Under the pieces are notes generated by a model. It made no database searches. It was not told the DNA's origin and was given only the letters and a program-made list of their open reading frames with translations. Shown here piece by piece: positions 14,452-42,716 of a stretch of DNA of 64,000 nt. The stretch lies in the NCBI GenBank assembly GCA_000004985.1, contig GG738876.1; one strand, given 5' to 3'. Positions within the stretch are counted from its first letter, which is position 1, and each line of letters starts with the position of its first letter. Source of the DNA: Naegleria gruberi. Taxonomy: Eukaryota. Position numbers and translations under genes: made by a program.

Positions 14452-16209
14452 ATGAGTGCTACAACTACTCCCACAACTACTGCAGTGGCTAATAACAGTT
14501 CAAATTCTGCTACTTCACCAACAGTAGCTGTCAAGAGCACTAATGGTTCGAATACATCATCAAATAATGCCAATAATTCAGCTTCGGATTATTATGTATC
14601 ATCAAAGAAGGGACTGGCAAATAATAGGGTGGAATCATCTAGTAGTGGAGAAAGATGGAATTCAATAGAGTTGAGTGATGTTGCTGCTAGTGGCAATACT
14701 TCAACTATTCCAGCATCGTTATCGATGGAAAATGAGCAACACAGTGATGATCATCATAGTGACAGTACAATAGAACCTCATCCACTTGATGCACATACTC
14801 ATACTATTGGAAACTATGCACAATTGGATCAGGAAAGTTCAAAACCGAAACTTGCAAGAAATCCATACATTTCACTTCTATTTCATAATAAGAGATTTTT
14901 AATTATTTGGATGGCAGGTGTCTTGTCAGGAATGGGAAATTATTTTTCAGAAATTGGTATTGTTTATGAAGTGGAAGAACGTACAACTGTTGGATTTGTT
15001 ACGAGTGGTGTTTTTATTTCAATCTTTTTACCTTCATGTGTTGCTACTCCATTTGCTGGTGTAGTTTCTGATATTTTCGATAGACGAAAGGTCTTGATTG
15101 TGTGTAATTTTTTGAGAGCTATTTTGGCTTTCGTTTTGGTGGCTGGTCCATTCATTACCAATACGAATGCACTCTTTGGTTTTTACTATACTATACTTGC
15201 TATGATTTTCTTTATTAATGCATTTTACGATGCTTCGAGAGGATGCATGATGCCACTCTGTGTCGATCACAATGATTTGGTTGCATGTAATGCATTGGAT
15301 AGTTTGACATGGTTGTTTTGCTCGTATACAGGTGGTGCCATTGGTGGAGCTGTGAGAGTTGCATTTGGATTGATTACTTGTTATGTATTGAATGGCATCT
15401 TGTTTATTGGTGCCTTAATGTTGTCCATCTGGTTGTTGTGGTTCCCTGATTTGAATCCACCGAAACCAGCCGACTTCCCAACTAAACCAATACCAATGAT
15501 GAAACACTCTCTGAAGGAATTAATTGCTGGATTCAAATTATTATTCAGTGGAAAGGGTTACTTGTTGAGTTTTGTTGTTATGAAATTATTGGGATCATCA
15601 GTTTGGGCCAGTATTGAATTTATCAATGTCAAATTATCGGAACTTCCAATGTTGAGCTTATTCAACAATGGTGAGCAAGGTATTCAAATGACCAACACTA
15701 TTGCCTACTGCTTGTTTGGTATTGGTTCAGGTTTAGCACCAATGCTTTTCGAATTATTCTTTGGAAATAGAATTAGAAGATCATTGAGGAGTGCATTCTG
15801 GACTCGTGTTGTAATTTTGGCTTCATTCTTTGCAATTTCTATGGGTTTCTTATTAATGTGCTTTACCTATCATGCCTCAATGTTCATTATTGCCAATTGT
15901 ATTCTTGGCTCAGCAGGAGGTGTCATGTGGGTTTACTCAATGTCAGCAATCGAACATTTAACGCCTAATCATTATTTGGGAAGAATTACTGCCTTTGATA
16001 TTTGTTTTGGATTTGGATTGGGACAAGCCATTGGTGTCATGATTCCTTCTCCATTACTCTATGATATTATAGGTATTAAGGTTCCTCACATCTTTGCCAT
16101 TGTCATGTTTGTTCTCTCTTGGATGTTGTTCTGTTTAACAATTGTCTGGTTCTATTTTACAAGAAAGATTCACCAACATTTTGTTGTGCATGATGATGAT
16201 CACCACTAG
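14452..16209 (+). CDS. Major facilitator superfamily transporter with about 12 TM segments, paralog of 31650..33302.
   Basis: Multi-TM hydropathy. About 85% aa identity to the second copy across the transporter core. The N-terminus is Thr/Ser/Asn-rich. Confidence 0.75.
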   Translation: MSATTTPTTTAVANNSSNSATSPTVAVKSTNGSNTSSNNANNSASDYYVSSKKGLANNRVESSSSGERWNSIELSDVAASGNTSTIPASLSMENEQHSDDHHSDSTIEPHPLDAHTHTIGNYAQLDQESSKPKLARNPYISLLFHNKRFLIIWMAGVLSGMGNYFSEIGIVYEVEERTTVGFVTSGVFISIFLPSCVATPFAGVVSDIFDRRKVLIVCNFLRAILAFVLVAGPFITNTNALFGFYYTILAMIFFINAFYDASRGCMMPLCVDHNDLVACNALDSLTWLFCSYTGGAIGGAVRVAFGLITCYVLNGILFIGALMLSIWLLWFPDLNPPKPADFPTKPIPMMKHSLKELIAGFKLLFSGKGYLLSFVVMKLLGSSVWASIEFINVKLSELPMLSLFNNGEQGIQMTNTIAYCLFGIGSGLAPMLFELFFGNRIRRSLRSAFWTRVVILASFFAISMGFLLMCFTYHASMFIIANCILGSAGGVMWVYSMSAIEHLTPNHYLGRITAFDICFGFGLGQAIGVMIPSPLLYDIIGIKVPHIFAIVMFVLSWMLFCLTIVWFYFTRKIHQHFVVHDDDHH

Positions 16210-16915
16210 AGAGTTAGTTAACATTTTGTAAATAAATTCTTGAATCGACATTTTACGGAAATCATAATTGAGTACAGAGAAATTTTCCTTTCACCCTACC
16301 CAGCCCTGAATCAATGTAAATCTTTCCAATTGTTTAAAACAGTAAACAAATAGCATTGTTGTAATGGTGTCGCCATCTTCCCCGAATATAATACTTTACA
16401 ATTCAGTTTTGGAGAGCATTGCACAAAAACCATCCAACTTTTCACCTGTATTCCATCCACATCAATACCTCGAATCAAAACGTCTTTTTAGATTCTTTCC
16501 TTTCAGTGCATTCCATCATGTCAACCATCCAACATTCTTAAAGAAAAACACAAAAAAACAACAACACTATCACAATCCCATTGTGTTATAATAACATCAT
16601 CAGCTTCGTGTTCTGCTCAGAGTCGTGGTTATTATTTTGCTCTGCATTTCATAGTTCCACTCTAATTAGTTGTGCAGGTGTACTATTCCCTTTTTCTACT
16701 CCGCTTCCTGTTGTAATTTTGTTGTTTCCAAGAGGAGCGAGAGGTTCTTTACCATTTATTCAACTCCAACATCACATCTATTTGGAACCACATACAGATT
16801 TAAAAAATAGAACACTGTATTGTGTTGGATTTGGTATCTTCATCATCATTTCTTAATAGTTCATCAACACAAAACAAATTTCTTTATCTGTACTTCTATT
16901 AAAATTCATTAAGAA

Positions 16916-19339
16916 ATGAGTCAGACATTAGCATCAACCATCTATCACAACAATACCATCGGTCTGCTTAACTATACCGATTCACAGACATTGCTGACGG
17001 AATTTGTTCGATTCAGTGCTTTTAAATTATATGGTAATGTCTTTCATTATACCTACGTAGATGATCACTTCTATTCGGTAGGCTTCATTCTCGGCATGAT
17101 ATCATTGGGAATTTTTATCGTCTTTGTGTTACCTTGCCAATTGGCTGTAAATATTCTGTATGGAATTCGGGCGCGAAAAATATTGAAAAAAAACAGAAAC
17201 AACTCATCGATAGAGACTCCACCCTCATCGGCTTCCTCTGGTGATGCTAGTGTAAATAAGGAAGAAAAGAAGAATAATACTGATAAATATACCTTTAGAG
17301 AAACACTGAAGAAAGCATGGTATGAATATGTTTTACTTGAGGGTGTGGCGAGGGCTACTCCTTCCTTTGTGATGGTCGTTTTTATTTGCTTAGTGATTTG
17401 GTTAACGAGTGCCTTTTCAAAGATACATTTTGCTGGAGCTGCAGTCTTGATGGCAATTACAATGACAATGTGGTTGATTCAGTGGGTATTGTTTGATTTA
17501 GGAACATTTACGTATGAAGTACTGAGGAGTTTTTCAACAAGATTTGGAAAGAGCAAAACATCGGAAGTAACTAAGGATCAAGAATTGAAAAATGTAGATG
17601 TGACAACATCAACCACATCAACCATGAATATTAATCAGAGCACAACAGCAATTGTTCCACCTTCGAATGATAGTTCATCTCATCATCATCACTCTGAACA
17701 TCGTTTCGGTGGATTAGTTAAGGATATTTCATTTGGATATGTTAAATCTTTGGCCAATCCTCTATTTAGAAGACATCCCTTATTAGGTGTACTTATAGTA
17801 TTCATCTTCTTCTTTGTTACTTTTCTGATATTTTTGGTTGTCAATGGTGTAACAGCAGACTTTTGTGTTGCCTACGATCCGATTGAAATCAGTACACTGG
17901 CCACTAGAGCTGGTGATTCTACTAGGTGTAAATCGGGCACTATCTGTTTTACTTACATGACGATTTCAGCAGATATTTCATCGGAAATGATTGTCAATTT
18001 TCAAATAGATGCAAAACAGCTCAACAGCTCTTTTGTTTATTATGGAACATTTGACCCTAATGCCGAGTTTCAATTCGATTCTAAGACAGCCTTAAAGGCT
18101 AATGCAAATTGCTTCAAAATGACTGTCATTGAAATTGATAGATGGCAATGTTATGTTAATTTGAGAGGATTGCAGTCTTCATCATCCTACTATGTCAAGA
18201 GTGCATTTACAGGAAAAGATTATACTGCCACTAGTGTCACTTTTGAGGATAGCAATGTATACAAGTTTAGAACAGCACCAAGTGCCTCTTCTCCTGATAG
18301 AATTGTTTCCTTCTTGAATGGAGGTGATTTAGCTTGGGGAACCAATTTCTTGTCCTTAGTTAAACTGATTCCTCCAACAGGAAAGAACATTTCAACAGCT
18401 CCCTATTTCTTTATGGTGGGTGGCGATGTTGCATACGATAATGGATGTGCCTACTGTTATATGAGATGGGAGAGTTGGTTCTCAAATTGGGCCAAATATA
18501 TGGTCGTTCCTCTTCAACACACCTCCTCAGTGTCACACACCTATACTCTGCCTCTAGCCTCTTGCGTTGGTAATCATGAGGCTGGAAATTTCAAAAGACC
18601 AAGATCTGACGATGCCTTCTATATCAGATATTTCCCTCATGAATTGGAGGGAGATTCTTCTAATTTGATTGTTTCTGACCCTCAATATACCAGAAAGTTA
18701 CAACACGTCCACTATCTCTCTTCCCACACATTGCTAATGGTGTTGGACTCTTGGGTTCACGAATCTCCAGAGCAACAAGTCTCATACATTGTCAATTACT
18801 TCAATGCTTTAGATCCATCAAAGTACAAGAACAGAATGGTTACGATTCACGAGGGAATTTATGCCTCCTCTTCTGAATTGAGCCCAATGACTGCAGCAAT
18901 GAGAGAACAATGGGAGGCCCTCTTCTTGAAGTATAACATTACACTAGTCTTGGAGAATCACGTTCACACCTACAAGCAAACCTATCCTCTCAGATTTGGT
19001 AAGGTGATGGATACTAAGGCTGATCCTTTAAATTCAAGAGCTGGAGCCGATAATGATTATTATTATGAAAGAAATATTTATAATGGATTAGGAAAGGAAG
19101 AAGAAAAGGGAATTATCTATGTTGGAGATGGAAGCTTGGGTGCACATTTTTATGGTGACAAGCTCTTGTTTGGAGATCCAATGTTCAGACAATTAGGAAT
19201 AATAACTCATTTCCACCATATCATTACTCATGATACAAATAGCGTTCCAACTATTGAGTTGACAGCTTATGGATATGATTCATCAACCGGAGACTCTTAC
19301 AGAGTTAGTGGTTCTGGTTTGACAATTAAAACTTTCTAA
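16916..19339 (+). CDS. Membrane-anchored purple-acid-phosphatase-like metallophosphoesterase.
   Basis: Calcineurin-like phosphoesterase motifs GGDLAWG, GGDVAYDNG and GNHEAG. The N-terminal roughly 300 aa carry several predicted TM helices. Confidence 0.7.
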   Translation: MSQTLASTIYHNNTIGLLNYTDSQTLLTEFVRFSAFKLYGNVFHYTYVDDHFYSVGFILGMISLGIFIVFVLPCQLAVNILYGIRARKILKKNRNNSSIETPPSSASSGDASVNKEEKKNNTDKYTFRETLKKAWYEYVLLEGVARATPSFVMVVFICLVIWLTSAFSKIHFAGAAVLMAITMTMWLIQWVLFDLGTFTYEVLRSFSTRFGKSKTSEVTKDQELKNVDVTTSTTSTMNINQSTTAIVPPSNDSSSHHHHSEHRFGGLVKDISFGYVKSLANPLFRRHPLLGVLIVFIFFFVTFLIFLVVNGVTADFCVAYDPIEISTLATRAGDSTRCKSGTICFTYMTISADISSEMIVNFQIDAKQLNSSFVYYGTFDPNAEFQFDSKTALKANANCFKMTVIEIDRWQCYVNLRGLQSSSSYYVKSAFTGKDYTATSVTFEDSNVYKFRTAPSASSPDRIVSFLNGGDLAWGTNFLSLVKLIPPTGKNISTAPYFFMVGGDVAYDNGCAYCYMRWESWFSNWAKYMVVPLQHTSSVSHTYTLPLASCVGNHEAGNFKRPRSDDAFYIRYFPHELEGDSSNLIVSDPQYTRKLQHVHYLSSHTLLMVLDSWVHESPEQQVSYIVNYFNALDPSKYKNRMVTIHEGIYASSSELSPMTAAMREQWEALFLKYNITLVLENHVHTYKQTYPLRFGKVMDTKADPLNSRAGADNDYYYERNIYNGLGKEEEKGIIYVGDGSLGAHFYGDKLLFGDPMFRQLGIITHFHHIITHDTNSVPTIELTAYGYDSSTGDSYRVSGSGLTIKTF

Positions 19340-19506
19340 TATTTTTACTTAACACCCAATGAATTTGAGGAATTGCTCTATTAAATTGATTTTTCAGAAT
19401 GATCTCCGTAGTTAACTTATCTTTTTGTTCGCTTGAATTATTAATGATTTTATTTGAAAATTACCACTATTCAATATTTTCATGCTATTTAATTATATTT
19501 TAAATT

Positions 19507-21372
19507 CTAATGATTAATCTTGTCACCTTTAACGTTATCTTTGAGATCACTTCTTGGTTTGAGTGAAATCTTCAAATTTCCAGGTCTGACAGTAATTCCA
19601 GGAATGTCTGTAACTTTATCCAATGGATCTTGTTCATTATTCAATAGTTCCAATTCGTAGAATTGTAAAATTCTACACAAGATTGAAAATGCTTCAATTT
19701 CTGCAAATTTATAACCCTATTAAATTTCAATAAAAATATTCTAAACTAAACTTACAATCTATTTCAATAAATTAGGACAAATAGTTTTAAAATTCGAATA
19801 CTTACACACTTTCTATTTCCCATAGAGAATGGAACCCATGTAAAATCATGTTGAATCTTTGATTGTTCCTCAGCATTCATTGGAAACCTTTCTGGAATAA
19901 ACTCATTAGGTTTCTCCCAATATTTTTCATTTCTATTCGTACTGAAAATATTAATCATCACTGTACTTCCCTTTGGAATAGTAAACTCTCCAATAGTAGT
20001 CGTTTTCTTTGCAATTCTAAAAACATTGACAACTGGTGGATGCAATCTCAAAGCTTCCATCACAATTGCATTCAAATAATGCATTTGATTGTAATCTTCA
20101 TAGGTAGGAGCTCTATTTCCAATCAATCTATCAATTTCTTCTCTTGCTTTCTTTTGAATTTCAGGTCTTTTTGCTAGCTCATAACAAACATAGGCAGAAC
20201 TTGAAGCTGTCGTCTATAGTTTCGTATATAATATGAATTGATGAATAATAGAAAGTCCAATAAATACGAACCTCATGTCTATTATAATAAATTAGGACAA
20301 ATAGTTTTAAAATTCGAATACAAACCCTGCAAGCGCGAAGATAAATGAATCTGCTTTGAGTTCAGAACGTGAAAGTAAGCCATTTTGAAGAACGTTGGCC
20401 TCTACTAACATACTCAATAAATCTCTTCTCTTATTAGATTCAGTTTCGTCTGTAGTTTGGAGATTAGTTTCGTATTCTTTGATACGTTCTTCAATGATTC
20501 GATCTAAAGTAGAAGAAACAATTTCCTCTGCTTCATTGACTTTAAAGTATTTTCTAGCCATTTTGGCAAAAATTGAACTTCCCAGGAATCGTCTAATAAT
20601 CAAACCTTTGGATAAAGTAGTTTCCATTGATTTTCTAAATACTTTTCCTTCAGGATTTGGATTATCACTTTCGAATATAGAAAAGTCCAATCCAAATAAA
20701 TGCTGCCTTTCCCAAAACATCTGTTCATTCCATTAATTTAATCACACAATTCCATTATAAATTTAAATTCGAAACTATAAACTCACCCAAAGTAATATCA
20801 CTAAAATCAGCAGTCGAATCAATCAACACACCAGCACCAACACTTCCACTCTTAATTTCCTTATCCCATTTCGTTCTTCTCATCAAATCAACACTCTCAC
20901 TCGCAACCAAAGCAACAAATTCCAAATTTTTAGGTGAAAATGCAGAATTTGCAACTCTGTGATGATTTTTCCAAGTTTCAGAGTTTGCATCCAAAGCAGA
21001 CAAAATATTAACTCCAAAAAGGTTGAATGGATCGTACATATCAGGTTCCTTGACAAAGTTGTGTCCTTTGGCTACGAGCAGTTCTTTGAGAAGATCACGA
21101 TCACAAATGGAGATGAGATTAGTTTTGAGCATTGAGACACGAACTGTTTTGGTTTTGGAATCTCCCTTCTCTTGGGTGAGTTGATACATGGAATGATGAG
21201 AGCCAAGGAAGAAGTGAGAGGCAATGATTGGAACTCTCTTGACAAAATTCATTAATTGCCATGATCCTGGAATGTTTTTGACTTTCGAATAGTTTTGATA
21301 GAGACGAAAGGATAAACTGATCAGTGCAGTTAGCAAGATGGCTAATAGCGTGTACGCAACAAGTGCAAACAT
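19507..21372 (-). CDS. Cytochrome P450, multi-exon. Exons include 19507..19716, micro-exon 19756..19758, 19806..20213, micro-exon 20272..20278 and 20326..about 20720. Exon 1 ends at 21372; the exon 1/2 junction near 20721..20776 is unresolved.
   Basis: Exons align to the + strand P450 paralog: membrane anchor, I-helix AGHETT restored only if the 7-nt micro-exon is included, EALRLHPP, and heme loop FSMGNRKC-I-G restored only if the 3-nt micro-exon ATT is included. Stop codon at 19507..19509. Confidence 0.65.
19759..19805 (-). repeat. Introner-like 47-nt intron, copy 1: GTAAGTATTCGAATTTTAAAACTATTTGTCCTAATTTATTGAAATAG.
   Basis: 43 of 47 nt are identical to the second intron at 20279..20325 in the same gene. 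It has its own GT..AG and sits 3 nt upstream of a conserved intron. Confidence 0.7.
20279..20325 (-). repeat. Introner-like 47-nt intron, copy 2: GTTTGTATTCGAATTTTAAAACTATTTGTCCTAATTTATTATAATAG.
   Basis: Near-identical to copy 1. It lies at the AG|HE I-helix position where the paralogous P450 (48880..48917) is uninterrupted. Confidence 0.7.
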
Positions 21373-21542
21373 TTTTTTTAGTATGAGAAAGCAAGTGGAT
21401 GATCAATTCGTTCTGACATGATTGCTGCACTTTCATGAGAAGTTGGATCAATTCTCCGAAAGAAACCGAAAGGGTAAATTATTCACAATTTTGTACCATT
21501 TCATACCCTTTTGTAAACCTTCTACAAATTGCAATTAACACT

Positions 21543-22415
21543 TCATAAAAAACTATAATCTCTAAATAAACAATTCCCCTTAATTTTGACATCAACTGAC
21601 AGTAATTGTTCCAAATCACTCAAATATTCGAGTCCTTGAATACTAATCTCATTCTCACTTATATCGAGTTTAGTCAATTGTATCAATTTGTTAATGTGTT
21701 TACATCCCTCATCCCCAATATAATTACTGGCAATATTAAGGTTAGTTAATTGAGTCAATTTACCAATGTATTTGGTTCCCAAAGCAGTAATATTATTCTC
21801 AGAAATGTCAAGATATGTTAAATGCTTCAATTGACTGACTTGTTTAGCTCCCTCATCACCAATTTCATTCTGACTAATATCAAGTTTAGTCAATTGATTC
21901 ATCTCACCAATGTATATAGCACCTTCAACACCAATATTGTTGCAACCTATTTTAAGATTTTTCAATTTTTTCATAATTCCACTAATGATCTTTGCTCCTT
22001 CCACTCCAACATTATTATTTCTAATATTGAGATGAGTCAATCGATTCATCTCTTGCAACTTTTTACAATCAAATACCACATCAGAAGGAACATCAACATT
22101 GTATTCCAGCTTGAGACGTGTAATATTAGGTAAGAATTGGCTTCCAACTTGGAATTTTGAATTACTTTTACATGAAAGGGAAAGAGTTGATCGTTCGGAG
22201 GTGATGATTTTCAACCACTGCTTTGAAACCAATGAACAACTCAGCACGAGAAAGGTAAAATCTCGAGGGAGAAAGGATAAGATTTCACCCAGTACATCAT
22301 CAGAGAATATAGAATCAGGATCTTGTGAGAGTTTCTTCCGTTTTGTTTGGTCGTCTTTAATGTTTGAAATATGGTAAGATTGGTGATCATCAAATTCTCT
22401 TACTCTCTTTATCAT
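21543..22415 (-). CDS. F-box-like plus RNI-type leucine-rich-repeat protein, paralog of 59765..60721.
   Basis: N-terminal motif DDVLGEILSFLP, then tandem roughly 24-aa repeats of the form L..L.I..N.IG.EGAK.I. Confidence 0.75.
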   Translation of the reverse strand: MIKRVREFDDHQSYHISNIKDDQTKRKKLSQDPDSIFSDDVLGEILSFLPRDFTFLVLSCSLVSKQWLKIITSERSTLSLSCKSNSKFQVGSQFLPNITRLKLEYNVDVPSDVVFDCKKLQEMNRLTHLNIRNNNVGVEGAKIISGIMKKLKNLKIGCNNIGVEGAIYIGEMNQLTKLDISQNEIGDEGAKQVSQLKHLTYLDISENNITALGTKYIGKLTQLTNLNIASNYIGDEGCKHINKLIQLTKLDISENEISIQGLEYLSDLEQLLSVDVKIKGNCLFRDYSFL

Positions 22416-22592
22416 TTTTTTTAAATAAACTTGAAATTGAGAGAGTATTACAATTCACTCACTACTTCTTGCCAACTTTCTAAATTCTTCTCATATTCAT
22501 TATCATGAAGGCTTTGAAATTAAATTCAACAAATCTTCATCATCAAAGGCTTCATCAAAAAATTTGACAAATAAAATATTAGGAAGAACAAT

Positions 22593-23753: not shown

Positions 23754-23995
23754 ACAATTTGTGAATTGTTTATCAAAGATGTTGAGAGAAGGTTTGTTGA
23801 ACCAAGTCAGTTTTATTCTAATTACAAATAATCTCTGTACTTTCCAAAACAAACCATTTAGCACCTTTCAACATCAATGTCTACAATATGGATCTTGACA
23901 TGTCTAAGGTAGAAGACAAATTTCACACGTCAACATTGACAACAAATTCAAGAAACAAAGAGTAACTTGAAGAAAAAAAATTCCAGTCTCCAGTA

Positions 23996-26900
23996 ATGAG
24001 AATTGTTACTCAAAAGCAAAGAAGATGGGGTAAACAAACTTCCCATCAACTACAGTCATTGTTAAAAACAGCACTCGTGGTGATAACACTGTTAGTATTG
24101 ACCCTTCAAAACTTATTCGAAACTGTACAGGGTGAACAACAAGTTTCCTTCACATTAGATTCTAACAAACTCATCTGTTCGGATTCTTCAAGCTACAACA
24201 GCACAATCTTTTTAAATTCATGCCAAGAAGTGCTTGGTTCAGCCTTCACTAGTAAATTATCCAGCACAACCATTGACAATCCTTCGTCCTATTCTTCCCT
24301 AGTGAGTTGTTACTTTAATTCGGATAAAAAACTTGTGGCAGAGCTTGGCTATGGCTATGAAATTCAAGATATTTTCAAAGGAGAAACTTACTACGATGCC
24401 TTTGGAAGGAAAATAGCGATTATCATCGTTTCACAATTGAAATGTAGTTTTCAAATTTCAAAGCTACAGTACATGTACTTGATTAATGTAGTAGATTGTG
24501 GAAGTAATGTTGCCAAAATTACCTACTCTCTCACTCACGCAAATGCTGATTTACCCAAATATTCAACATTTTCACATCCAATGATGGCTATTCCCTTTTC
24601 AAATAATTATATTAACAATGGTAGACCGGATGTTACTTTTAATCTTGCTACCCAAGCACTCACATATAGTACTTCAAAAGCAAGTGACCAAACCTCAGTT
24701 ACTACTGGTGGTGTTATTGAGTATGGAACTACTACTTTGGTTGGAAATCAAGGATATACACAATTTTTTCTGAATGAAAGCTCAATTGACTCATACACAA
24801 CAACATTTGAACAACCTACTCCTAAAACATTGTATAATTATCTATTAATCAAACAGAATAGAGATGTTGTGGATGTAACAACCTTTGCATCTGGGTATAA
24901 TTACAAATTCTCCTCATCATCAGGTTATTCGAAAACAATATATACTTCATTTTCATACAAGTCAGATTGTTACTACTTGTCAGGAGGTGATAAAACTCAT
25001 CACAAAACACAGGATTTAACAATTAGTATACAGTCAACTGATTTGGAAAGATGTCCATTATATGCTTTACAATACATTTTTGATGGGAATGCTAAAACTA
25101 AAACGAGTAGCACGACATATGCTGCATCTTCACTAACAGATGGTTCAGAAAAGACTGTTACAGTAACTTTGGTTCAACCAACTGGTGGATACGTTGGTGC
25201 GTTCAGAACAACTGTGAGAATTGGAATTTTCCCTGCCATGATGAGACCAGTTTATTTCCCTATTGCACAAACAACTGGACAAAAGCTAACACTTCAATCC
25301 ATTATCGACATTCCTAATCTCACGACCTCTTTAATTTCATGTCAATTGATTGTTGCAACAGGAACTAATGAATATACTTCAAATTCAATTACCTATGATT
25401 ATACTCCAAATTCAATTCAAGTTCAAAATTACAAAACCTATTCGATTATATCGGTTTCAATTACTGTTGGAAATCCTGGAACTTCTTACAAGATTAGAGT
25501 CAATTATAATGGAGATACAAAACATTACAATGATTTCCAAATTTCTCCACAATCAAAACCAAACCTATTGGGTATTTGTAAAGTATCCACAGTTGAATCG
25601 AACCCAATAGCCTACGAGACATTTTTTGGTATTTATTGTGAAAATTATGCAGATTTTGACTTTAGATCAATGAAAATTCAAGTATTGAACGATCAATCAC
25701 AATCAATTTTGACCTTATCCAATACCAAGTACACTCGTATTTTTGCGAGATTACCAAAATCAGCAACAGGTAAATCAAATACTGTCTTGTTTACATTGAC
25801 AGATAGCACAGGAGCTGTATTTGAGTTTAAGGATACCTATAAAGCTTCCATGTGGAGCGACACTAATTTGATTAGTACAGTAGATTTCTACATCAAGTCC
25901 AAGCAAGTGAGAAACTATCAAACAGCCAATAATATTGCAATTTTGTTGGACATTCTTGCAGATTATTGTAAGAGGAATACATTATCTTCTTCTGAGATGG
26001 TTACTGTGAAGGGAATTGTTCGTTATGCCATAAATGAAACATTTAACATTAGAGATACTTTCCATCCTAATGTTTATCCTGAGGCTACTGAATTATTGTT
26101 TGGATTATTTAGAGAATCAACTAATTTGGCGAATTATCTAGGATTTTCAGAGTTTAATGACAAATTGAAGGAAATTCTCTCATTTATGACAAGTTATGTA
26201 AGAAAATCATCCTTTTCCAGCACTGATTATAATTTCTTGATAGATTACATGTCAAGACTTGTGGATAATGGAAATCAAACAACTACTGATCCATCTGCTG
26301 TTTCAACTTTGAAGAAAAACATTGATGGATTGACTAATATCGCCAGCAAGAATTCTCCATTCAAGAGTGATTATTTTTCATATCAATCTCAGACCTTCTA
26401 CTCATCAGATGAAATTGCTTCAAATCAAGTGAATTTGGAAAATAGTTGGGTTAGAGTGTTGTTTGGATCTGAGGTGGCCAATTTGGTAAAATCTCAATCA
26501 CAATACGATTTGGAAACAAGTTTATACAAGAAGTATATTGTGGAAAATAATGTTACACTCCCAGTTATTGCCTCTATCAGTTTGAAGAGACAAGATAGCT
26601 CTGTGGTTAATGTTACTGGATTACAGACACCAGTATTAATATATTTCAACATGGATCTAATTAATTCAACAATGGCAAATCAATATAGAAACTATCAATC
26701 GAGAATTTCATGTTATTACTTGAATGAGTTGACAAGCAAGTGGGCCAATGATGGTCTAACAACAGAGATTATCACTGAAAATGGTCAAACTGTTGTCAAG
26801 TGTTCTTCCACTCACCTTACTTCATTCACAATATTCTCAGACTTGTTCAATACTACAGGTAGTAACACAAATACCCCATCAACAGATAGAAATGGACTAG

Positions 26901-28032
26901 ATGTTGGGGCAAGGGTAGCCATTGGCGTTTCAATTTCAGTATTCTTCCTCATTTTGATAATTGTGATTGTAATTATTATCATTGTAATTATATGTTGTCG
27001 TGTGAAAAAAGGCAAAAATAGTCAGAGCAATGTTTCTGATTCTGTCCAGGAAACCAATCCAATCACCAAGAGTTATGTAGAATTGAATCCAGTCTCCAAC
27101 TCTGATTCTGGTCCATCATTGTTTATTAGTGATTACAAGTCAGTGAGAGAGCCTTCATCCTCGAAACAATACGATACTACCAGTGGAAGTTCATTTACCT
27201 CAGAGCCAACCAGCTCACTCATGACTTCAACAAGTGGAAACTCTGTTATTGGAAAGAAGTATGAAATTTTGGAAAAGATTGGCCAAGGAGCATTCGGGGC
27301 TGTATTTAGAGCTAAAAATCTAGCCTATACTGGAAGATCTGGAGAATATCAATATGTTGCCATTAAAAAGATTCAGCTTTCTGGCCTCTCTGAAATGAAT
27401 GACAAATTCAAAGAGGCGGTCAACATGTTCAAGATTAGAAATGAGCATTTAGTTTGTTTGGAGGATGCTGTGGTGGACGAAACGACCATGTCACTCTACT
27501 TGGTCATGCAATATTATTCTCAAGGAGATTTGGACAAGTTTATCAAAAGCAAGCAACTCTTATCTGAGAGCATTCTGAAACAAATTATTGAACAAGTATG
27601 TGAAGGATTGAAATATTTGGAAGAGGAACGTAACATGCTCCACAGAGATATCAAACCTTCCAATATTTTCCTATCCAGCTATGATGGAAACAATATCAAG
27701 ACAGTGCTCAGTGATTTTGGATTGGCTAAGGAAAATAACATGATGTCAAGTGTTTCATTCGCTGGAACTCCATACTACATGTCTCCACAGGCCTTAATTG
27801 GAACCAAGTATAGCTTTAATGCAGATATCTTTAGTTTGGGATGTACCATTTTCATTCTCATCACTCATGACATGTCTCAATCCATAGCTCAATTATATTT
27901 CCAACATCAGGGCAATTTCTCTGAGGTTTATTCCTTCATTACCAACTCTATCCGTCAACATTCGAATGAACAATTCCAATACAGTGATGAATTCGTTCAG
28001 CTCTTATTTGCATTGATGGAATTTGATCCCAA
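23996..28032 (+). CDS. Receptor-like single-pass transmembrane Ser/Thr protein kinase with a roughly 950-aa ectodomain that ends in a GPS-like motif. The 3' end is truncated by an assembly gap.
   Basis: N-terminal hydrophobic signal or anchor; a Cys- and NxS/T-rich ectodomain; ...C..W...G...T..C.STHLTSFTIF immediately before the TM segment VAIGVSISVFFLILIIVIVIIIIVII. The kinase subdomains are GQGAFGAV, VAIKK, HRDIKPSN, DFGLAKE and GTPYYMSPQ. Confidence 0.75.
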
Positions 28033-28181
28033 NNNNNNNNNNNNNNNNNNNNNNNNNNNNNNNNNNNNNNNNNNNNNNNNNNNNNNNNNNNNNNNNNNNN
28101 NNNNNNNNNNNNNNNNNNNNNNNNNNNNNNNNNNNNNNNNNNNNNNNNNNNNNNNNNNNNNNNNNNNNNNNNNNNNNNNNN
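28033..28181. other. Assembly gap, a run of N.
   Basis: 149 consecutive N. The ORF-track protein spanning it (X residues) is an artefact that fuses two genes. Confidence 0.99.
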
Positions 28182-28186
28182 TAACA

Positions 28187-29545
28187 ATGTTGTGGATTGA
28201 AAAGGTTGGTGCAGTTGGAGGACAACTTGTTGCTGGATTTCAACCCGAATGTATGATTTGCAGAGAAACAATCAACAATGGAGAGGTTTGTATTGGCATG
28301 AGGAAGGTTCATGATTTGGCTATTCACTTTCCCTATCATCCGAGAAGATTTCTCGAAGAAGAGGAAAGGCTTCGTTCCGATGATCATCCATTCAATGAAA
28401 ATTATTTTGATGATTGCAAACAGGACAATGATTATGTACATACTGATTGTTATCCGTACCAATTGGTGAGGCCGTATGCTTGTATGTTTGATGATTCATC
28501 ATCGAATGCTTCTCATGCAGAACAAAAGCAAATTCATAAGTTGATTTCTGATTGGCAATATGGCTATAGAACATTGAATGCCAAGACAAAGAAGAGAAAA
28601 GCAGATAATGGTGATGAAAGTGAGAAGAAAACAAAGACTTCAAAGAGTACTGCAACAAAAAGGAAGAGAAAGACAAAGAAGGAATCAACAGACAGTGCAT
28701 CATCATCAACTAGTACCCCTGGAGGAAGTAGTAGTGGTACTACTGATTACAGTTGGATGAATGCTATTGATTGCACTAATGTGGATTCACCTTACTTGTT
28801 TGGACTCTCAGATGATGCTTGGTATGAAATTCTATCCTATCTACCTCATTATTCAATTGTGAAGGCCTCACAATCATGTAAGGCATTGTACCTTTATTCG
28901 AATAGGAGTATTCTTTGGGAGAATTTGGCAAGCAAAACTATTTGTCCTAATGCAAAACAAGTCCAACAGGAATACTTTCCAACTCTTACTGATGACTTTA
29001 AAAAGGTTTTCAGATTATTGTACAATAATTGTTGTGTAATTTGTGGAGATTATATCAGAAAAGGTGAAGACCTAGATAATAGAAAGAGTTTGTACAGATC
29101 AAAAGGTGGTATTATTGTAGAATCTAATCCATTTTATTATAATTTTATGATTGATCAGTGTCATTGCTCAACATGTTCAGAATCACCACTCATCAATACC
29201 TTTACAAGAACAAATGCCAAGACGCTTTATAGGGTTACAGATACTGAACTAGGGTGTACTAGAAATTTTGCAAAGCCTAACCCTTATTCTCCATCTGTTG
29301 CTATGGGAATATTCCTAGAGTTACAAGTTAAAATATTTCATTTACAGAAAGTGGAAGAAGAATTGAGGAAAAATTTCAAAAAATCAAAAACACATCCAAA
29401 ATCAGATTATTTAAAAATTATTGACAAGGCAAAACGAGGAGATTATGGAAAGGATTGTAAATTATATATTTTCTTAAATGATTCGAATAAGAAGATTTGT
29501 AAAGATAAGGCTATTTATACTTATATTGATGAATTGAGTCCATAA
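28187..29545 (+). CDS. Hypothetical F-box-like, Cys-rich protein. The 5' end is uncertain and possibly truncated by the gap.
   Basis: The ORF resumes right after the gap. The motif LSDDAWYEILSYLP is F-box-like. It carries Cys-rich CxxC pairs and a Lys-rich NLS-like stretch. Confidence 0.5.
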   Translation: MLWIEKVGAVGGQLVAGFQPECMICRETINNGEVCIGMRKVHDLAIHFPYHPRRFLEEEERLRSDDHPFNENYFDDCKQDNDYVHTDCYPYQLVRPYACMFDDSSSNASHAEQKQIHKLISDWQYGYRTLNAKTKKRKADNGDESEKKTKTSKSTATKRKRKTKKESTDSASSSTSTPGGSSSGTTDYSWMNAIDCTNVDSPYLFGLSDDAWYEILSYLPHYSIVKASQSCKALYLYSNRSILWENLASKTICPNAKQVQQEYFPTLTDDFKKVFRLLYNNCCVICGDYIRKGEDLDNRKSLYRSKGGIIVESNPFYYNFMIDQCHCSTCSESPLINTFTRTNAKTLYRVTDTELGCTRNFAKPNPYSPSVAMGIFLELQVKIFHLQKVEEELRKNFKKSKTHPKSDYLKIIDKAKRGDYGKDCKLYIFLNDSNKKICKDKAIYTYIDELSP

Positions 29546-29582
29546 GTCAAAAAAAAGATTTGAGATTCTATCATGGTATTTA

Positions 29583-30761
29583 TTAAATATTTACAACAAT
29601 TTTTCCAACAGTTTTCTTTGATTTCATCATTTGCATTGCTTGTGTCGCTTCATCCAATTGGAAAACATTTAAATTCATCAAGCTGAAATTATTATCAGGT
29701 GTCAAAATGTTATGCATAAGGAAGGCAAATTCCTTTGGCTTTTTACCAAAGAAATTAACTAGACCATATTTAGGCGAACCTTTTGAGATTAAGGCAGAAC
29801 AAATGGTTGTTATCATATAATAAGCAGTGGAACAAATGGTTGAAAAATTGAGGGCAGCAGCACCTGGTGGAACTAGACAAGCATACACTACTTGATCCTC
29901 TGCTTTTCTACAATCCAAATGTTGCTTGACATCATCATAGAAATAGTAACCTCCAACACAATCTATAACCATATCGACATACTCTTCACCAAAGTCTCTT
30001 CTCAATACTTGGCAGACACTTGGTAACCCAGAAGTACTCGATGAGTGATATTCATTATTTCCATCCTTTGCACTTGTTTTGGTATAGTCAATTATTTCAT
30101 CAGCTCCCAAAGATTTAACATATTCAATATTCTTTTCTGAACACACAGCATAAATTGTCAAATCCAAAATCCTTTTCAAGAATTTACTGGCCATCAATAC
30201 AGCCATACTTCCGCAACCACCAGCTGCTCCAATAATCAACAATTTGAATTGTTTCTTTGGCTTTTCACTTGAATTAAGCAATTCTGGCTTTTCCATACAT
30301 TCCTTAATCAGAGCATCAATCTTTGGATGATGTGTATAGGCAGTAAATATAGTTCCACCAATTGTAGGAAATGCAGCAGCTTGCAAATCAGTCATTTCCT
30401 TTGGTTTCAAAATCAAATCATCCTCCTCAAATTTACAAAACTCTGCCAAGGTTCCAGTTTTGGCACCAGGTAATGAACCAACCACTTCATCACCAACTTG
30501 AAATTTCGTCACCAATGAACCAACCTTTTCAACAATTCCACTTCCGTCCAATCCCAAAATTAATGGAAACTCCTTCGGAAAGAGCAATTTTACAGCTCCA
30601 CTCGACATGTGGCCATCACCAGCATTCAAACTAGCAGCCTTGATCCTAACTAACACTTCCCTCTCCTTCAAATCTTGATCATTCAATTCAAAATCATTTC
30701 TTGATACAAATTCAGGTGATTCGGAATAACCTTCCAAAATTTGAGCTCTCATCTTGGTCAT
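29583..30761 (-). CDS. Zinc-type alcohol dehydrogenase / MDR oxidoreductase, a complete single-exon paralog of the gene at 1..662.
   Basis: 392 aa. GroES-like N-domain and a Rossmann fold with IIGAAGGCGS. Confidence 0.8.
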   Translation of the reverse strand: MTKMRAQILEGYSESPEFVSRNDFELNDQDLKEREVLVRIKAASLNAGDGHMSSGAVKLLFPKEFPLILGLDGSGIVEKVGSLVTKFQVGDEVVGSLPGAKTGTLAEFCKFEEDDLILKPKEMTDLQAAAFPTIGGTIFTAYTHHPKIDALIKECMEKPELLNSSEKPKKQFKLLIIGAAGGCGSMAVLMASKFLKRILDLTIYAVCSEKNIEYVKSLGADEIIDYTKTSAKDGNNEYHSSSTSGLPSVCQVLRRDFGEEYVDMVIDCVGGYYFYDDVKQHLDCRKAEDQVVYACLVPPGAAALNFSTICSTAYYMITTICSALISKGSPKYGLVNFFGKKPKEFAFLMHNILTPDNNFSLMNLNVFQLDEATQAMQMMKSKKTVGKIVVNI

Positions 30762-31084
30762 TTTGTTATTTCAACTAAAATATTATTATATTGTTATTAT
30801 TATGTACTATTGCTTTAGGGACAAAATCTAATGATCAAGTAAAACTTGTTATTTGATGTTTGCGTATTTTTTTTTCTTACTTTTGAATGAAATATTCATC
30901 AGCGCACTATTTAAGGTTTTTGGCGGGAAATAATTGTCCTGCATTAAATGAAACACGTGTTTCACATAAATTCAATCAATTGATACTTGACTAATTGGAA
31001 AGTGAGATGTGAATGAGAAAGAATGTGGAAGAAACACGTAAACCACATCAAAAAACATGTGTTTCTTCTATTTGGTTTTTCACT

Positions 31085-31396
31085 GGGATGTAAATTTGAA
31101 ATTGATTACAAAAATAAATTACAAAATTGTTGTAAGTTTCAATTTTTGAGCATGTATTAATTTTATAAACCACAATTTGCTATTCATTCCAATAGAGATC
31201 AATTCTACTACCTCGAAAACTATGATTATTTAATTGGGAATTACATTAGTTTCTTATAAAAAGATGCTTAGACCTAATTGTCAACCTTTCTGTCGTTTGT
31301 GAGCACAATCGTGTTCAACAAAGATGGCTGGGTTTCAATTAAGGTAATGTGGTGGTGTGAAATGTTGTCATGCCGATTGATGAACTGCTGTAATTC
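31085..31396 (+). repeat. Dispersed roughly 310-bp repeat family, copy C.
   Basis: Shares a conserved 5' end (GTAAATTTGAAATTGATTACAAAAATAAATT) and 3' end (GATGAACTGCTGTAATTCTTTT) with the copies at 40018..40330 and 42236..42550. The middle has diverged. Confidence 0.7.
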
Positions 31397-31649
31397 TTTT
31401 AACTGTTTGCTGAATTTTAATGTTTTTTACTGAAACACTATTAAAGTTGATTTCTCTAATTCTGAGCAGGTTGAAACAGCATCTTCTTGTGAAGAAACAT
31501 TGGAACAAAGTTAAAGGAAATGGATCGAATGTAACTACATTTTTTTGCTTAAGTAATATTCTAAACAGAAACCTTTCCCTTATTTCCTTTCTTGTAAATT
31601 TTTTGAAAACATTAATTTTATTTACAATTTGATAATTCATTGTAATAAT

Positions 31650-33302
31650 TCAATGCGACATTACTTCTTCATGATGCTCTTCAACAGTGTGATGTTGGTG
31701 AATATTCTTTGCCAAATAAAACCAAACAATAAATAGGCAGAAAATCAACCAAGAAAATACAAACATTACCAAACATAGTAATTGTGGTGTTAAAATTCCA
31801 AAAATATCATACAAGAAAGGAGAAGGAATCAAAACACCAATGGCTTGACCTATTCCATATCCAAAACAAATATCAAAAGCTGTAATTCTTCCCAAATAAT
31901 GATTAGGTGTCAAATGTTCGATTGATGACATGGAATAAACCCACATGACACCTCCTGCTGATCCAATAAAGAATTCAGCAATAATAAACATACTGGCATG
32001 GACACTGAAAGACATGAGTAAGAATGCAGCTGGGAAAACCAAGAAAGATCCAAGAATTATGAAACGAGTCCAGAATGCACTCCTCACTGATCTTCTTATA
32101 CGATTTCCAAAAGTTAATTCGAATAACATTGGAGCTAAACCTGATCCAACGCCAAATAGACAGTAAGCAATGGTATTAGTGAGCTTGGCTCCTCCTTCAT
32201 CATTAAATAATTGCATTGATGGTAATTCGGATAATTTAACATTGATAAATTCAATACTGGCCCAAACTGATGATCCCAATAATTTCATAACAACAAAACT
32301 CAACAAGTAACCCTTTCCACTGAATAATAACTTGAAGCCAGCAATTAATTCCTTCACAGAATGTTTCATCATTGGTAATGGTTTAGTTGGGAAATCGGCT
32401 GGTTTCGGTGGATTCAAATCAGGGAACCACAACAAGGCAATTGACAATGCCAACGCAATCAAGAACAAAACTCCATTCAATACATAACAAGTAATCAATC
32501 CAAATGCAACTCTCACAGCTCCACCAATGGCACCACCTGTATACGAACAAAACAACCATGTCAAACTATCCAATGCATTACACGCGACCAAATCATTGTG
32601 ATCGACACAGAGTGGCATCATGCATCCTCTCGAAGCATCATAAAATGCATTAAGGAAAAATATTAAGGCAAGGATGATGTAATAGAAGGAGAAGAGGACT
32701 GCCTTATTTTCCATAAAGCAACCACCAATGAGGACGAAAGCTAGAATGGCTCTCAGGACATTGCAGACAATCAAGACCTTTCGTCTATCGAAAATATCAG
32801 AAACTACACCTGCGAATGGAGTAGCAACACATGACGGTAAAAAGATACAGAGAAATACAGCACTTGTGGCAAATCCAACAGTTGTACGTTCTTCCACTTC
32901 ATAAGCAATACCAATTTCTGAAAAGTAATTTCCCATTCCTGACAAGACACCTGCCATCCAAATAATTAAAAATCTCTTATTATGAAATAGAAGTGAAATA
33001 TAGGGATTTCTTGCAAGTTTCGGCTTTGAACTTTCCTGATCCAATTGTGCATAGTTTCCAATAGTATGTGGTGCTTCCAAACTTTCCATTGACGGTCTAG
33101 GTTCAGAGTTTAGTTCAATATCGTCCAATGATTTTCTAGATAAATCCTGATCATGACTTGTCGCTTCATCATGATCTTCAATGGAAATCCTCTCTCCACC
33201 TGCAACCACTCCTCCATCCTCTTGATTCCAATCTTCATCTCCTCTTGCATGTCTTTGTTTGTCCATCACTTTCAATTCTTCTTCCATTTTTGTTGTGGTC
33301 AC
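31650..33302 (-). CDS. Major facilitator superfamily transporter, paralog of 14452..16209.
   Basis: 550 aa and about 12 TM segments. Internal nucleotide stretches are about 97% identical to the other copy. The N-terminus is acidic and unrelated. Confidence 0.75.
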   Translation of the reverse strand: MTTTKMEEELKVMDKQRHARGDEDWNQEDGGVVAGGERISIEDHDEATSHDQDLSRKSLDDIELNSEPRPSMESLEAPHTIGNYAQLDQESSKPKLARNPYISLLFHNKRFLIIWMAGVLSGMGNYFSEIGIAYEVEERTTVGFATSAVFLCIFLPSCVATPFAGVVSDIFDRRKVLIVCNVLRAILAFVLIGGCFMENKAVLFSFYYIILALIFFLNAFYDASRGCMMPLCVDHNDLVACNALDSLTWLFCSYTGGAIGGAVRVAFGLITCYVLNGVLFLIALALSIALLWFPDLNPPKPADFPTKPLPMMKHSVKELIAGFKLLFSGKGYLLSFVVMKLLGSSVWASIEFINVKLSELPSMQLFNDEGGAKLTNTIAYCLFGVGSGLAPMLFELTFGNRIRRSVRSAFWTRFIILGSFLVFPAAFLLMSFSVHASMFIIAEFFIGSAGGVMWVYSMSSIEHLTPNHYLGRITAFDICFGYGIGQAIGVLIPSPFLYDIFGILTPQLLCLVMFVFSWLIFCLFIVWFYLAKNIHQHHTVEEHHEEVMSH

Positions 33303-39897: not shown

Positions 39898-40017
39898 TTT
39901 TTTGTGAACTTTTACAATTTTTATTCCATGTGTACACAACTATATATTGTATTGCTGTTTCTGATCTAGTTAGAAAGAAAAGGAAAGGTAAAGAATATAG
40001 AAAGATGAAGAAAAAAA

Positions 40018-40330
40018 AAGAATTACAGCAGTTCATCAATTGGCACACAGATTTTGTGCCAACACATTACCTAAAGCGTAACCCTTCAATCAAAGGTACA
40101 CGAGCTACACAATGACCGTCAGATTTTGCTTTTAGTCTGAGCATCTTTTTTATTAGAAACTAATGTAATTCCCAATTGAATTGTAATTGTTTTCAAGGTA
40201 ATAATCATGAACGCAATAAGAATGAATATCAAATTGTGGTTTTATTCTTTTTAAAATGTTGCACATTTTCAATCCCCAAACTGAAACTACAAATTTTGCA
40301 ATTTATTTTTGTAAGCAATTTCAAACAATC
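40018..40330 (-). repeat. Dispersed roughly 310-bp repeat family, copy A, inverted relative to copies B and C.
   Basis: This is the reverse complement of 42236..42550 with a few substitutions. On its own strand it ends in a T-run. Confidence 0.75.
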
Positions 40331-42550: not shown

Positions 42551-42716
42551 TTTTTTTCTTCATCTTTCTATTCTTTACCTTTCTTTTACATTCTAACATC
42601 TCTGATATTCGAAACTTGAAAGTTTTCATTTAATTTCGAATTGATTGGAACGAAACAATCATTTTTGAATTTAATAGAACTTTCTCAAAATCAATCAATT
42701 TCAATTGACCAAAAAA

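What the first reader, a model, noticed from the sequence alone, without database searches (positions are those of the whole stretch)
14452..33302. Recent duplication or gene conversion between MFS transporter paralogs, with an ADH paralog pair nearby
The MFS genes at 14452..16209 (+) and 31650..33302 (-) contain internal stretches that are about 97% identical at the nucleotide level, including synonymous positions. For example 15230..15350 and the reverse complement of 32521..32640 show 3 differences in 120 nt. Their N-terminal roughly 110 codons are unrelated, and other segments are only about 80% identical. The second MFS copy is immediately followed by a Zn-ADH gene (29583..30761) whose paralog lies at the window start (1..662). 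This pattern suggests a duplicated MFS-ADH cassette with ongoing gene conversion.
Basis: seen in the sequence. Interest (0 to 1): 0.5.

Follow-up and report, generated by a model that had tools for sequence, protein, structure and literature searches.

The report
Gene conversion between two transporter paralogs
Two old, oppositely oriented copies of a membrane-transporter gene lying 15 kb apart in the amoeba Naegleria gruberi have had patches of their sequence overwritten by each other (gene conversion); this is a clean new example of a well-known process, and the nearby dehydrogenase genes are not part of it.

Summary
MFS copy A (14452-16209, +) and copy B (31650-33287, -) align over 14800-16179 / 33068-31692 at 83% nucleotide identity. 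That average hides a sharp mosaic. Six tracts of 33-206 nt are 91-98% identical, and the blocks between them are only 51-68% identical.

An ortholog of B from a related Naegleria in a metagenome (Bp) settles the cause. Synonymous divergence between B and Bp is uniform: 0.46 in the tracts and 0.45 in the blocks. Between A and B it is 0.115 in tracts 1-5 and saturated in the blocks. The closest pair is (A,B) in the tracts and (B,Bp) in the blocks, each with 100% bootstrap support. In the tracts, 22 sites carry a state shared by A and B while Bp and paralog C share another, against 3 such sites in the blocks.

This is interlocus gene conversion between ancient paralogs, after the split from the Bp lineage. 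It is not a recent duplication.

The "MFS-ADH cassette" idea fails. The two dehydrogenases are only 41% identical as proteins, are not collinear with the MFS genes, and Bp has a different downstream gene. The third MFS paralog sits on another scaffold.

This is an ordinary mechanism in a new, well-resolved instance.

The parts
14452..16209 (+). MFS copy A, intronless CDS of 585 aa. It is 100% identical to P0001, which NCBI names 'DUF894 domain-containing protein' of N. gruberi.
31650..33287 (-). MFS copy B, intronless CDS of 545 aa starting at the ATG at 33287. It equals XP_002675818.1 of N. gruberi NEG-M, on the same 396,977-nt contig as A.
14452..14799 (+). N-terminal low-complexity extension of A (116 codons), with no homology to the N-terminus of B
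33069..33287 (-). N-terminal extension of B (73 codons). It is unrelated to that of A but conserved with the ortholog Bp.
14800..14998 (+). Conversion tract 1 in A. Partner in B is 33068-32870. 5 mismatches in 199 nt.
32870..33068 (-). Conversion tract 1 in B
15022..15101 (+). Conversion tract 2 in A. Partner in B is 32846-32767. 3 mismatches in 80 nt.
32767..32846 (-). Conversion tract 2 in B
15215..15395 (+). Conversion tract 3 in A. Partner in B is 32653-32473. 4 mismatches in 181 nt.
32473..32653 (-). Conversion tract 3 in B
15433..15638 (+). Conversion tract 4 in A. Partner in B is 32435-32230. 7 mismatches in 206 nt.
32230..32435 (-). Conversion tract 4 in B
15775..15807 (+). Conversion tract 5 in A. 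Partner in B is 32096-32064. 1 mismatch in 33 nt. Short and weakly supported on its own.
32064..32096 (-). Conversion tract 5 in B
15910..16052 (+). Tract 6 in A. Partner in B is 31961-31819. 13 mismatches in 143 nt, significantly more diverged than tracts 1-5 (Fisher p=0.0015). Probably an older or partial conversion.
31819..31961 (-). Tract 6 in B
15102..15214 (+). Largest early unconverted block in A (60% identity to B 32766-32654). The other unconverted blocks are 14999-15021, 15396-15432, 15639-15774, 15808-15909 and 16053-16206. These blocks are enriched in hydrophobic transmembrane helices.

Best explanation
A and B are two functional, ancient paralogs of a Heterolobosea-specific MFS_3 / DHA3-like transporter. 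They lie tail to tail, 15.4 kb apart, on one N. gruberi chromosome.

Non-reciprocal homologous recombination (interlocus gene conversion) between these inverted copies has homogenised short tracts of about 80-206 nt. The tracts sit in the parts of the gene where purifying selection kept the two copies similar. The faster-evolving, mostly transmembrane-helix blocks escaped and have diverged to saturation, and they now act as barriers that bound the tracts.

The last homogenisation of tracts 1-5 dates to about a quarter of the synonymous divergence from the Bp lineage (dS 0.115 against 0.466). Tract 6 is older.

Shown: the mosaic, the difference in silent-site divergence, the switch in topology, and the uniform rate between orthologs.

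Inferred: that conversion has been recurrent rather than a single event. Without conversion the tracts would be only about 75% identical, as A-C is, which is probably too low to start conversion anew. Also inferred: that sequence divergence, rather than selection, sets the tract boundaries. If there was only one phase, B to A is the simplest direction. Under recurrent homogenisation the direction cannot be determined.
For: - Mosaic of six tracts at 91-98% identity and six blocks at 51-68%.
- Nei-Gojobori dS for A-B is 0.148 over all tracts and 0.115 [0.06-0.18] in tracts 1-5. In the blocks pS is 0.81, which is saturated. For the orthologs B-Bp, dS is 0.46 in the tracts and 0.45 in the blocks, so silent-site rate and constraint are uniform along the gene.
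- In a triplet bootstrap the closest pair is (A,B) in 100% of replicates for the tracts and (B,Bp) in 100% for the blocks. Four of the six tracts individually reach at least 99.5% or about 91%.
- Site patterns are clustered: z=-5.9 with 0 of 100,000 permutations as extreme, and p=0.0008 with synonymous sites only.
- 22 tract sites carry a state shared by A and B while Bp and paralog C share another, against 3 such sites in the blocks.
- Tracts 1-5 are homogeneous in divergence (chi-square p=0.94).
- In the blocks, a protein NJ tree gives (A,(B,Bp)) 89% and (C,N. lovaniensis,N. fowleri) 97%, with the A-B distance equal to the A-C distance. The duplication is therefore old.
- Both copies are intact. 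dN/dS is 0.06-0.17 in all comparisons.
- The blocks are intrinsically faster-evolving: dN for C-N. lovaniensis is 0.188 in the blocks against 0.112 in the tracts. 61% of block residues fall in predicted transmembrane helices, against 27% of tract residues.
- Naegleria genomes encode RAD51, DMC1, MSH2/6 and PMS (PMC9928731).
Against: - No ortholog of A from another lineage is available, so the direction of conversion and the choice between single and recurrent events remain inferred.
- Bp is a single 2.4-kb metagenome contig of unknown species. Its orthology rests on full-length alignment, including the N-terminus, and not on synteny.
- There is no GC3 excess in the tracts, so no signature of GC-biased conversion.
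- Tract 5 (33 nt) and tract 6 are individually weak.
- The HMM segmentation was fitted to the same A-B mismatches that it then summarises. The tests that use Bp are independent of it only in part.
Confidence: 0.9

Rival explanations
1. A recent tandem or inverted duplication (dS about 0.1), followed by very fast localised divergence of some blocks through positive or relaxed selection, with no conversion.
For: The blocks are the less constrained, mostly transmembrane parts of the protein. A and B share a 3-4-codon insertion relative to C and to the N. fowleri and N. lovaniensis orthologs.
Against: - Synonymous sites in the blocks are saturated between A and B (pS 0.81), while B-Bp dS there is only 0.45. 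Selection on amino acids cannot do that.
- In the blocks B groups with Bp, not with A, in 100% of bootstraps.
- The N-terminal coding regions and flanks are unrelated.
Confidence: 0.02
2. The near-identical tracts reflect nucleotide-level constraint, such as RNA structure, an overlapping antisense gene or extreme codon bias, rather than sequence exchange.
For: The tracts coincide with the regions most conserved at protein level in the whole family. An antisense ORF exists at 15037-15414.
Against: - The same tracts have ordinary silent divergence between the orthologs B and Bp (dS 0.46) and saturated dS between C and N. lovaniensis (1.5).
- A-B is closer than B-Bp only in the tracts.
- No Rfam family is present there.
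Confidence: 0.02
3. Reversed history: A arose recently as a copy of the conserved domain of B, and its divergent blocks were then overwritten by conversion from another, now unseen, divergent paralog. This is still gene conversion, but with a different resident and donor.
For: The block sequences of A are about equally far from B and from C, as expected if they came from a separate lineage.
Against: - No fourth paralog of N. gruberi was returned. The search found only A, C and P0002, whose cluster was later shown to include B.
- The N-terminus and both flanks of A are non-B, so the resident locus is the divergent one.
- This history needs six independent incoming tracts plus loss of the donor.
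Confidence: 0.04
4. Assembly artefact: a chimeric consensus built from reads of two paralogs.
For: There is only one public assembly of this strain. The exact proteins are not on record in independent assemblies.
Against: - Twelve alternating segments of 23-206 nt within 1.4 kb are much shorter than a Sanger read, so each read would span divergent anchor blocks that place it unambiguously (inference).
- The tracts are not identical: they differ at 2-4% with a low dN/dS, as expected for real evolving loci.
- Bp, from an independent sample, has the same B-type blocks.
Confidence: 0.02

Closest known systems
Interlocus (ectopic) gene conversion between linked paralogs, as described for primate globin genes, the yeast CUP1/HIS3 inverted-repeat assays and human Y-chromosome palindrome arms (from general knowledge, not tested here)
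   Same: Short tracts of near-identity that include silent sites, gene-tree discordance between tracts and flanks, paralogs a few kb apart on the same chromosome, an inverted orientation, and tract ends bounded by diverged sequence.
   Different: The host is a heterolobosean amoeba in which no sexual cycle has been observed. The tracts are unusually short and numerous: six within 1.4 kb, separated by blocks diverged to saturation. No GC-biased signature is detectable.
Alpha-tubulin multigene family of N. gruberi, about eight exceptionally similar segments (PMC2115128)
   Same: Same organism, and paralogs kept very similar at nucleotide level, which suggests concerted evolution.
   Different: That family is uniformly similar across its copies. 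Here only patches are homogenised, and an orthologous outgroup allows conversion to be demonstrated and dated. I read only the abstract and the reference list of that paper.
MFS_3 / DHA3-type efflux transporters (Pfam PF05977; TIGR00900; the enterobactin exporter EntS; Mef macrolide efflux pumps)
   Same: A Pfam MFS_3 match above the gathering score, and full-length alignment to TIGR00900, EntS and Mef profiles.
   Different: - Scores are far below every curated NCBIfam cut-off: 89-104 bits against 319.6 for TIGR00900, and 38-46 against 324 for EntS.
- Identity to bacterial relatives is only 24-29%.
- The proteins have a eukaryote-type disordered N-terminal extension and a His-rich C-terminal tail.
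- The substrate is unknown.

Membership tests
Interlocus gene conversion between paralogs | Tracts of significantly elevated identity between paralogs, clustered along the alignment beyond chance | tested here: met
   HMM segmentation. Longest identical run 92 nt, against a maximum of 78 in permutations. Runs test z=-5.9.
Interlocus gene conversion between paralogs | The elevated identity extends to synonymous sites and is not explained by local constraint, using an ortholog as control | tested here: met
   A-B dS is 0.115-0.148 in the tracts and saturated in the blocks. B-Bp dS is 0.46 and 0.45 respectively.
Interlocus gene conversion between paralogs | Phylogenetic incongruence: paralogs group together inside the tracts, orthologs group together outside them | tested here: met
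   (A,B) in 100% of replicates in the tracts and (B,Bp) in 100% in the blocks. 22 tract sites carry a state shared by A and B while Bp and paralog C share another, against 3 in the blocks.
Interlocus gene conversion between paralogs | Donor and acceptor identified, with the direction of transfer | tested here: inconclusive
   B-Bp dS in the tracts equals that in the blocks. This fits either B to A or recurrent homogenisation. No A ortholog is on record.
Interlocus gene conversion between paralogs | Direct observation of the event, such as polymorphic tracts in a population or experimental recombination | not testable with these tools
   Only one N. gruberi assembly is available here.
Major facilitator superfamily, MFS_3 (PF05977) | Pfam profile match above the gathering score | tested here: met
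   MFS_1 scores 75-78 bits (cut-off 33.4). MFS_3 scores 46-48 bits (cut-off 27).
Major facilitator superfamily, MFS_3 (PF05977) | Twelve transmembrane helices arranged as two six-helix halves | tested here: inconclusive
   A crude Kyte-Doolittle scan finds 10 strong hydrophobic segments and misses weaker ones. No structure was predicted.
DHA3 subfamily (TIGR00900) / enterobactin exporter EntS (NF007792) | Score at or above the curated NCBIfam cut-off | tested here: not met
   89-104 bits against 319.6, and 38-46 bits against 324. The proteins resemble these families but cannot be filed as members.
   41% amino-acid identity over 170 aa, 64% nucleotide identity over 295 nt, and no near-identical tracts.
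   ADH1 (1-662, +) lies 14 kb upstream of A (+) with about eight ORFs in between. ADH2 (-) lies downstream of B (-).
   Bp is followed by an unrelated convergent ORF that has no match in the window.
Zinc-dependent alcohol dehydrogenase (for ORF 29583-30761) | Catalytic Zn ligands: the Cys of the GxCxxD region and the His-Glu of the GHE motif (criterion from general knowledge of the MDR superfamily) | tested here: not met
   Reading the translation, the protein has 'LGLDGSG' where Zn-ADHs have 'GHEGAG', and no Cys at the first ligand position. Pfam hits are ADH_N and ADH_zinc_N_2, with ADH_zinc_N below its cut-off. It is better described as a zinc-independent, quinone-oxidoreductase-like MDR protein.

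The most novel reading that the evidence does not exclude
The mosaic may be a steady state kept by selection rather than a passive relic. Recurrent conversion would keep the shared core of the two transporters identical, meaning the loops, motif regions and cavity-forming segments. Selection would reject any conversion that enters the transmembrane blocks carrying copy-specific substrate or partner specificity. The locus would then be a natural reporter of active ectopic homologous recombination in an amoeba with no observed sex. It would give a tract length of at most about 200 nt and a rate estimate, and crossovers between the inverted copies might flip the 15.4-kb segment between them.
Probability: 0.2. 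Interest if true: 0.45.

Novelty: new member of a known kind. Interest (0 to 1): 0.3.

Why it matters
- It shows that homologous recombination has acted ectopically in the nuclear genome of N. gruberi since the lineage split from a close relative. This is relevant to the open question of recombination and sex in Naegleria.
- It is a caution for dating paralogs. The whole-gene identity of 83% suggests a young duplicate, but the unconverted blocks show that the duplication is as old as the divergence of the Naegleria species compared here.
- It gives a rough upper bound on conversion tract length in this organism of about 80-206 nt.
- It removes a false lead, the MFS-ADH cassette.

The mechanism itself is textbook, so the general significance is modest.

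Tried and rejected
- Exact look-ups of A (twice) and of B in the contig index found nothing. I could therefore not confirm the mosaic in an independent assembly, nor read beyond the window.
- A metagenome scan with a family alignment, meant to find an A ortholog, returned only 51 distant loci at 23-36% identity and no additional Naegleria copies.
- Synteny: no window ORF other than the MFS genes matches the N. fowleri, N. lovaniensis, C or Bp loci at E<=1e-8. This gives no positional orthology.
- The flanks of Bp do not align with the flanks of B in the window, at nucleotide or translated level.
- GC-biased conversion: GC3 is not higher in the tracts.
- Exchange with paralog C: no window has A-C or B-C identity above the C-N. 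lovaniensis level, and dS is about 1.5.
- The first bootstrap with Biopython timed out. I replaced it with my own NJ code.
- The protein-level tree of the tracts is uninformative for A/B/Bp because there are too few substitutions. I used nucleotide triplets instead.
- The PDB sequence search found no relative.
- Literature: I found no paper on these genes or on paralog conversion in Naegleria.
Full report
**Source and genes.** The window has 34% G+C. Copy A (14452-16209, +, 585 aa) is 100% identical to P0001, which NCBI names a 'DUF894 domain-containing protein' of Naegleria gruberi, on a 396,977-nt contig. Copy B read from the ATG at 33287 (31650-33287, -, 545 aa) is XP_002675818.1 of strain NEG-M on the same contig. 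Both match Pfam MFS_1 and MFS_3 (PF05977) above the gathering scores. They also align end to end with the TIGR00900 (DHA3), EntS and Mef profiles, but far below the curated cut-offs. They are therefore MFS efflux-type transporters of unknown substrate. They resemble DHA3/EntS proteins but cannot be filed as members.

The family as recovered here comprises three N. gruberi copies (A, B and C; C is P0003, on a different 1.0-Mb scaffold), one copy each in N. fowleri and N. lovaniensis, two in Willaertia magna, and two metagenome sequences. The next relatives are bacterial, at 24-29% identity.

**Checking the observation.** blastn aligns 14800-16179 with 33068-31692 at 83% identity with one 3-nt indel, and finds nothing alignable in the N-terminal coding parts or the flanks. 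The repeat finder gives the same inverted arms.

A codon-aware match string and a two-state HMM show twelve alternating segments. Six tracts are 97.5, 96.3, 97.8, 96.6, 97.0 and 90.9% identical: 14800-14998, 15022-15101, 15215-15395, 15433-15638, 15775-15807 and 15910-16052. Six blocks are only 51-68% identical.

It is not chance. The longest identical run is 92 nt, against a maximum of 78 in 20,000 permutations.

**What causes it.** The key was P0002 ('Bp'), a 544-aa protein on a 2.4-kb metagenome contig. Bp aligns with B along its whole length, including the N-terminal extension that A lacks, at 86.7% nucleotide identity. It is therefore an ortholog of B from a related Naegleria.

Sliding windows show that B-Bp identity is roughly flat (0.80-0.95). 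A-B identity swings between 0.55 and 1.00, and it exceeds B-Bp exactly in the tracts.

Nei-Gojobori estimates make this quantitative:

| Comparison | Tracts | Blocks |
|---|---|---|
| B-Bp | dS 0.46 | dS 0.45 |
| A-B | dS 0.148 (0.115 [0.06-0.18] in tracts 1-5) | saturated (pS 0.81) |

Silent-site rate and constraint are therefore uniform along the gene. What changes from segment to segment is how closely A and B are related.

In a triplet bootstrap the closest pair is (A,B) in 100% of replicates for the pooled tracts and (B,Bp) in 100% for the pooled blocks, and most individual segments are decisive. The two informative site patterns are strongly clustered: z=-5.9, with 0 of 100,000 permutations as extreme, and p=0.0008 using synonymous sites only. 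Polarising with paralog C, 22 tract sites carry a state shared by A and B while Bp and C share another, against 3 such sites in the blocks. The simplest reading is that these are changes made after the split from the Bp lineage that are now present in both paralogs. Polarisation with C is noisy, because A-C synonymous sites are nearly saturated (dS about 1.5). Together these results are the classical signature of interlocus gene conversion.

**Age of the duplication.** In the unconverted blocks a protein NJ tree gives (A,(B,Bp)) at 89% and (C, N. lovaniensis, N. fowleri) at 97%. The A-B distance is 0.53. That equals the A-C distance and exceeds C-N. lovaniensis (0.33) and C-N. fowleri (0.49). 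The N-terminal 116 codons of A and 73 codons of B are unrelated, and so are the flanks. The duplication is therefore old, and 'recent duplication' is rejected. Both copies are intact, with dN/dS of 0.06-0.17, so both appear functional.

**How it most likely works.** A and B are convergent inverted repeats with 15.4 kb between them. Homologous recombination between them, resolved without crossover, copies short stretches from one into the other.

The tracts fall in the parts of the protein that are conserved across the whole family. For the C-N. lovaniensis pair, dN is 0.112 in the tracts and 0.188 in the blocks. By a crude hydropathy scan, 27% of tract residues lie in transmembrane segments, against 61% of block residues.

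My inference is a feedback loop. Where purifying selection kept the copies similar, conversion could continue and kept them nearly identical. Where they drifted apart, mismatch-dependent rejection stopped conversion, and those blocks now bound the tracts. Without conversion the tracts would be only about 75% identical, judging from A-C in the same columns. That is probably too low to start conversion anew, so I favour recurrent homogenisation over a single late event.

Tracts 1-5 are homogeneous in divergence (chi-square p=0.94). Tract 6 is significantly older (Fisher p=0.0015). The direction cannot be fixed. Equal B-Bp dS in tracts and blocks fits either B-to-A transfer or continuous homogenisation. 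No GC3 excess marks the tracts.

**Rivals.**
- Local selective constraint is excluded by the B-Bp control.
- A recent duplication with fast local divergence is excluded by the saturated silent sites and by the (B,Bp) grouping in the blocks.
- A reversed history, in which A is a recent copy of B later overwritten by an unseen paralog, needs a fourth paralog that the search did not return. It also conflicts with the non-B N-terminus and flanks of A.
- A mis-assembly is unlikely, because the segments are far shorter than a read and the tracts differ by 2-4% with low dN/dS. Independent resequencing would still be the formal test, since the exact-sequence look-ups found no second assembly.

**The ADH part of the finding.** ORF 29583-30761 (-) and the fragment at 1-662 (+) are both MDR-superfamily dehydrogenases. 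They share only 41% amino-acid identity over 170 aa and 64% nucleotide identity over 295 nt, with no near-identical tract. ADH1 lies 14 kb upstream of A with about eight ORFs in between. ADH2 lies downstream of B after an 890-bp spacer. This is not the arrangement of an inverted cassette. Bp is followed by an unrelated convergent gene. The cassette idea is not supported.

Reading its sequence, ADH2 lacks the GHE motif and the Cys ligand of zinc-dependent ADHs. It is better called a zinc-independent, quinone-oxidoreductase-like MDR protein. The sequence is; the criterion is from general knowledge.

**Comparison with what is known, and novelty.** Gene conversion between linked paralogs, including inverted ones, is textbook biology. 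Naegleria genomes encode the recombination and mismatch-repair genes required (PMC9928731). Very similar multigene families have been noted in N. gruberi (PMC2115128). I found no paper on these genes or on paralog conversion in Naegleria.

This is therefore a new, unusually well-resolved member of a known kind. It is useful as evidence of recombination in this amoeba, and as a warning against dating the duplication from whole-gene identity, but it is not surprising. Interest 0.3.

Noticed in passing
window 39969-40325, 42245-42597 and 31089-31400: A non-coding repeat of about 350 nt. Two copies form a 94%-identical inverted pair flanking ORF 40601-41266 (221 aa). A third copy, 74% identical, sits in the spacer between ADH2 and MFS copy B. 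It could be a mobile or repetitive element with terminal inverted repeats. No long ORF runs through it and no Rfam family matches.
   Followed up: partly
window 41560-41696 and 41912-42048: A second, inner inverted repeat (95% over about 137 nt) inside the same 2.6-kb unit.
   Followed up: no
MFS family: window 14452-16209 and 31650-33287; loci L007-L057: Among the hits returned, the only eukaryotic members of this family are from Naegleria and Willaertia. The next relatives are bacterial or metagenomic MFS_3 proteins at 23-36% identity that share the motifs NALDSLTW and FFxNAFY. This may be an ancient horizontal acquisition; no phylogeny was made.
   Followed up: partly
C-termini of A (about 16170-16206) and B (about 31653-31700), and all homologs: Every family member ends with a conserved IHQHH motif followed by a His/Asp/Glu-rich tail, which suggests metal binding. 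The N. fowleri ortholog lies next to a hemerythrin gene.
   Followed up: no
L003 10001-11871 and L004 10001-11626, compared with the window copies: The N. fowleri ortholog has one 134-nt intron (after CDS nt 463) and the N. lovaniensis ortholog one 69-nt intron (after CDS nt 268), at different positions. All three N. gruberi copies and Bp are intronless.
   Followed up: partly
window 23996-29545 (+): An uninterrupted 1849-aa ORF that combines a protein kinase domain with an F-box and a weak GPS-motif hit, an unusual architecture.
   Followed up: no
window 1-662 (+): The ADH1 fragment changes frame at about 560-615. Its last 15 codons, similar to the C-terminus of ADH2, are in another frame, which implies a short intron near the 3' end.
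   Followed up: no
window 34188-35495 (-): The ORF carries the end of an ABC_tran domain plus an ABC2_membrane domain (ABCG type). It is evidently one exon of a larger intron-containing gene that continues upstream.
   Followed up: no
window 59765-60721 and 21543-22415; also 49092-49371 against 19807-20086: Further dispersed similarities of 74-77% nucleotide identity inside the window. They suggest other paralog pairs or repeats, and none shows near-identical tracts.
   Followed up: no
L001 (metagenome contig ERZ929261): An environmental contig encodes a protein identical over all 511 residues to N. gruberi paralog C. N. gruberi-like amoebae are therefore present in public metagenomes and could supply the missing A ortholog.
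   Followed up: no
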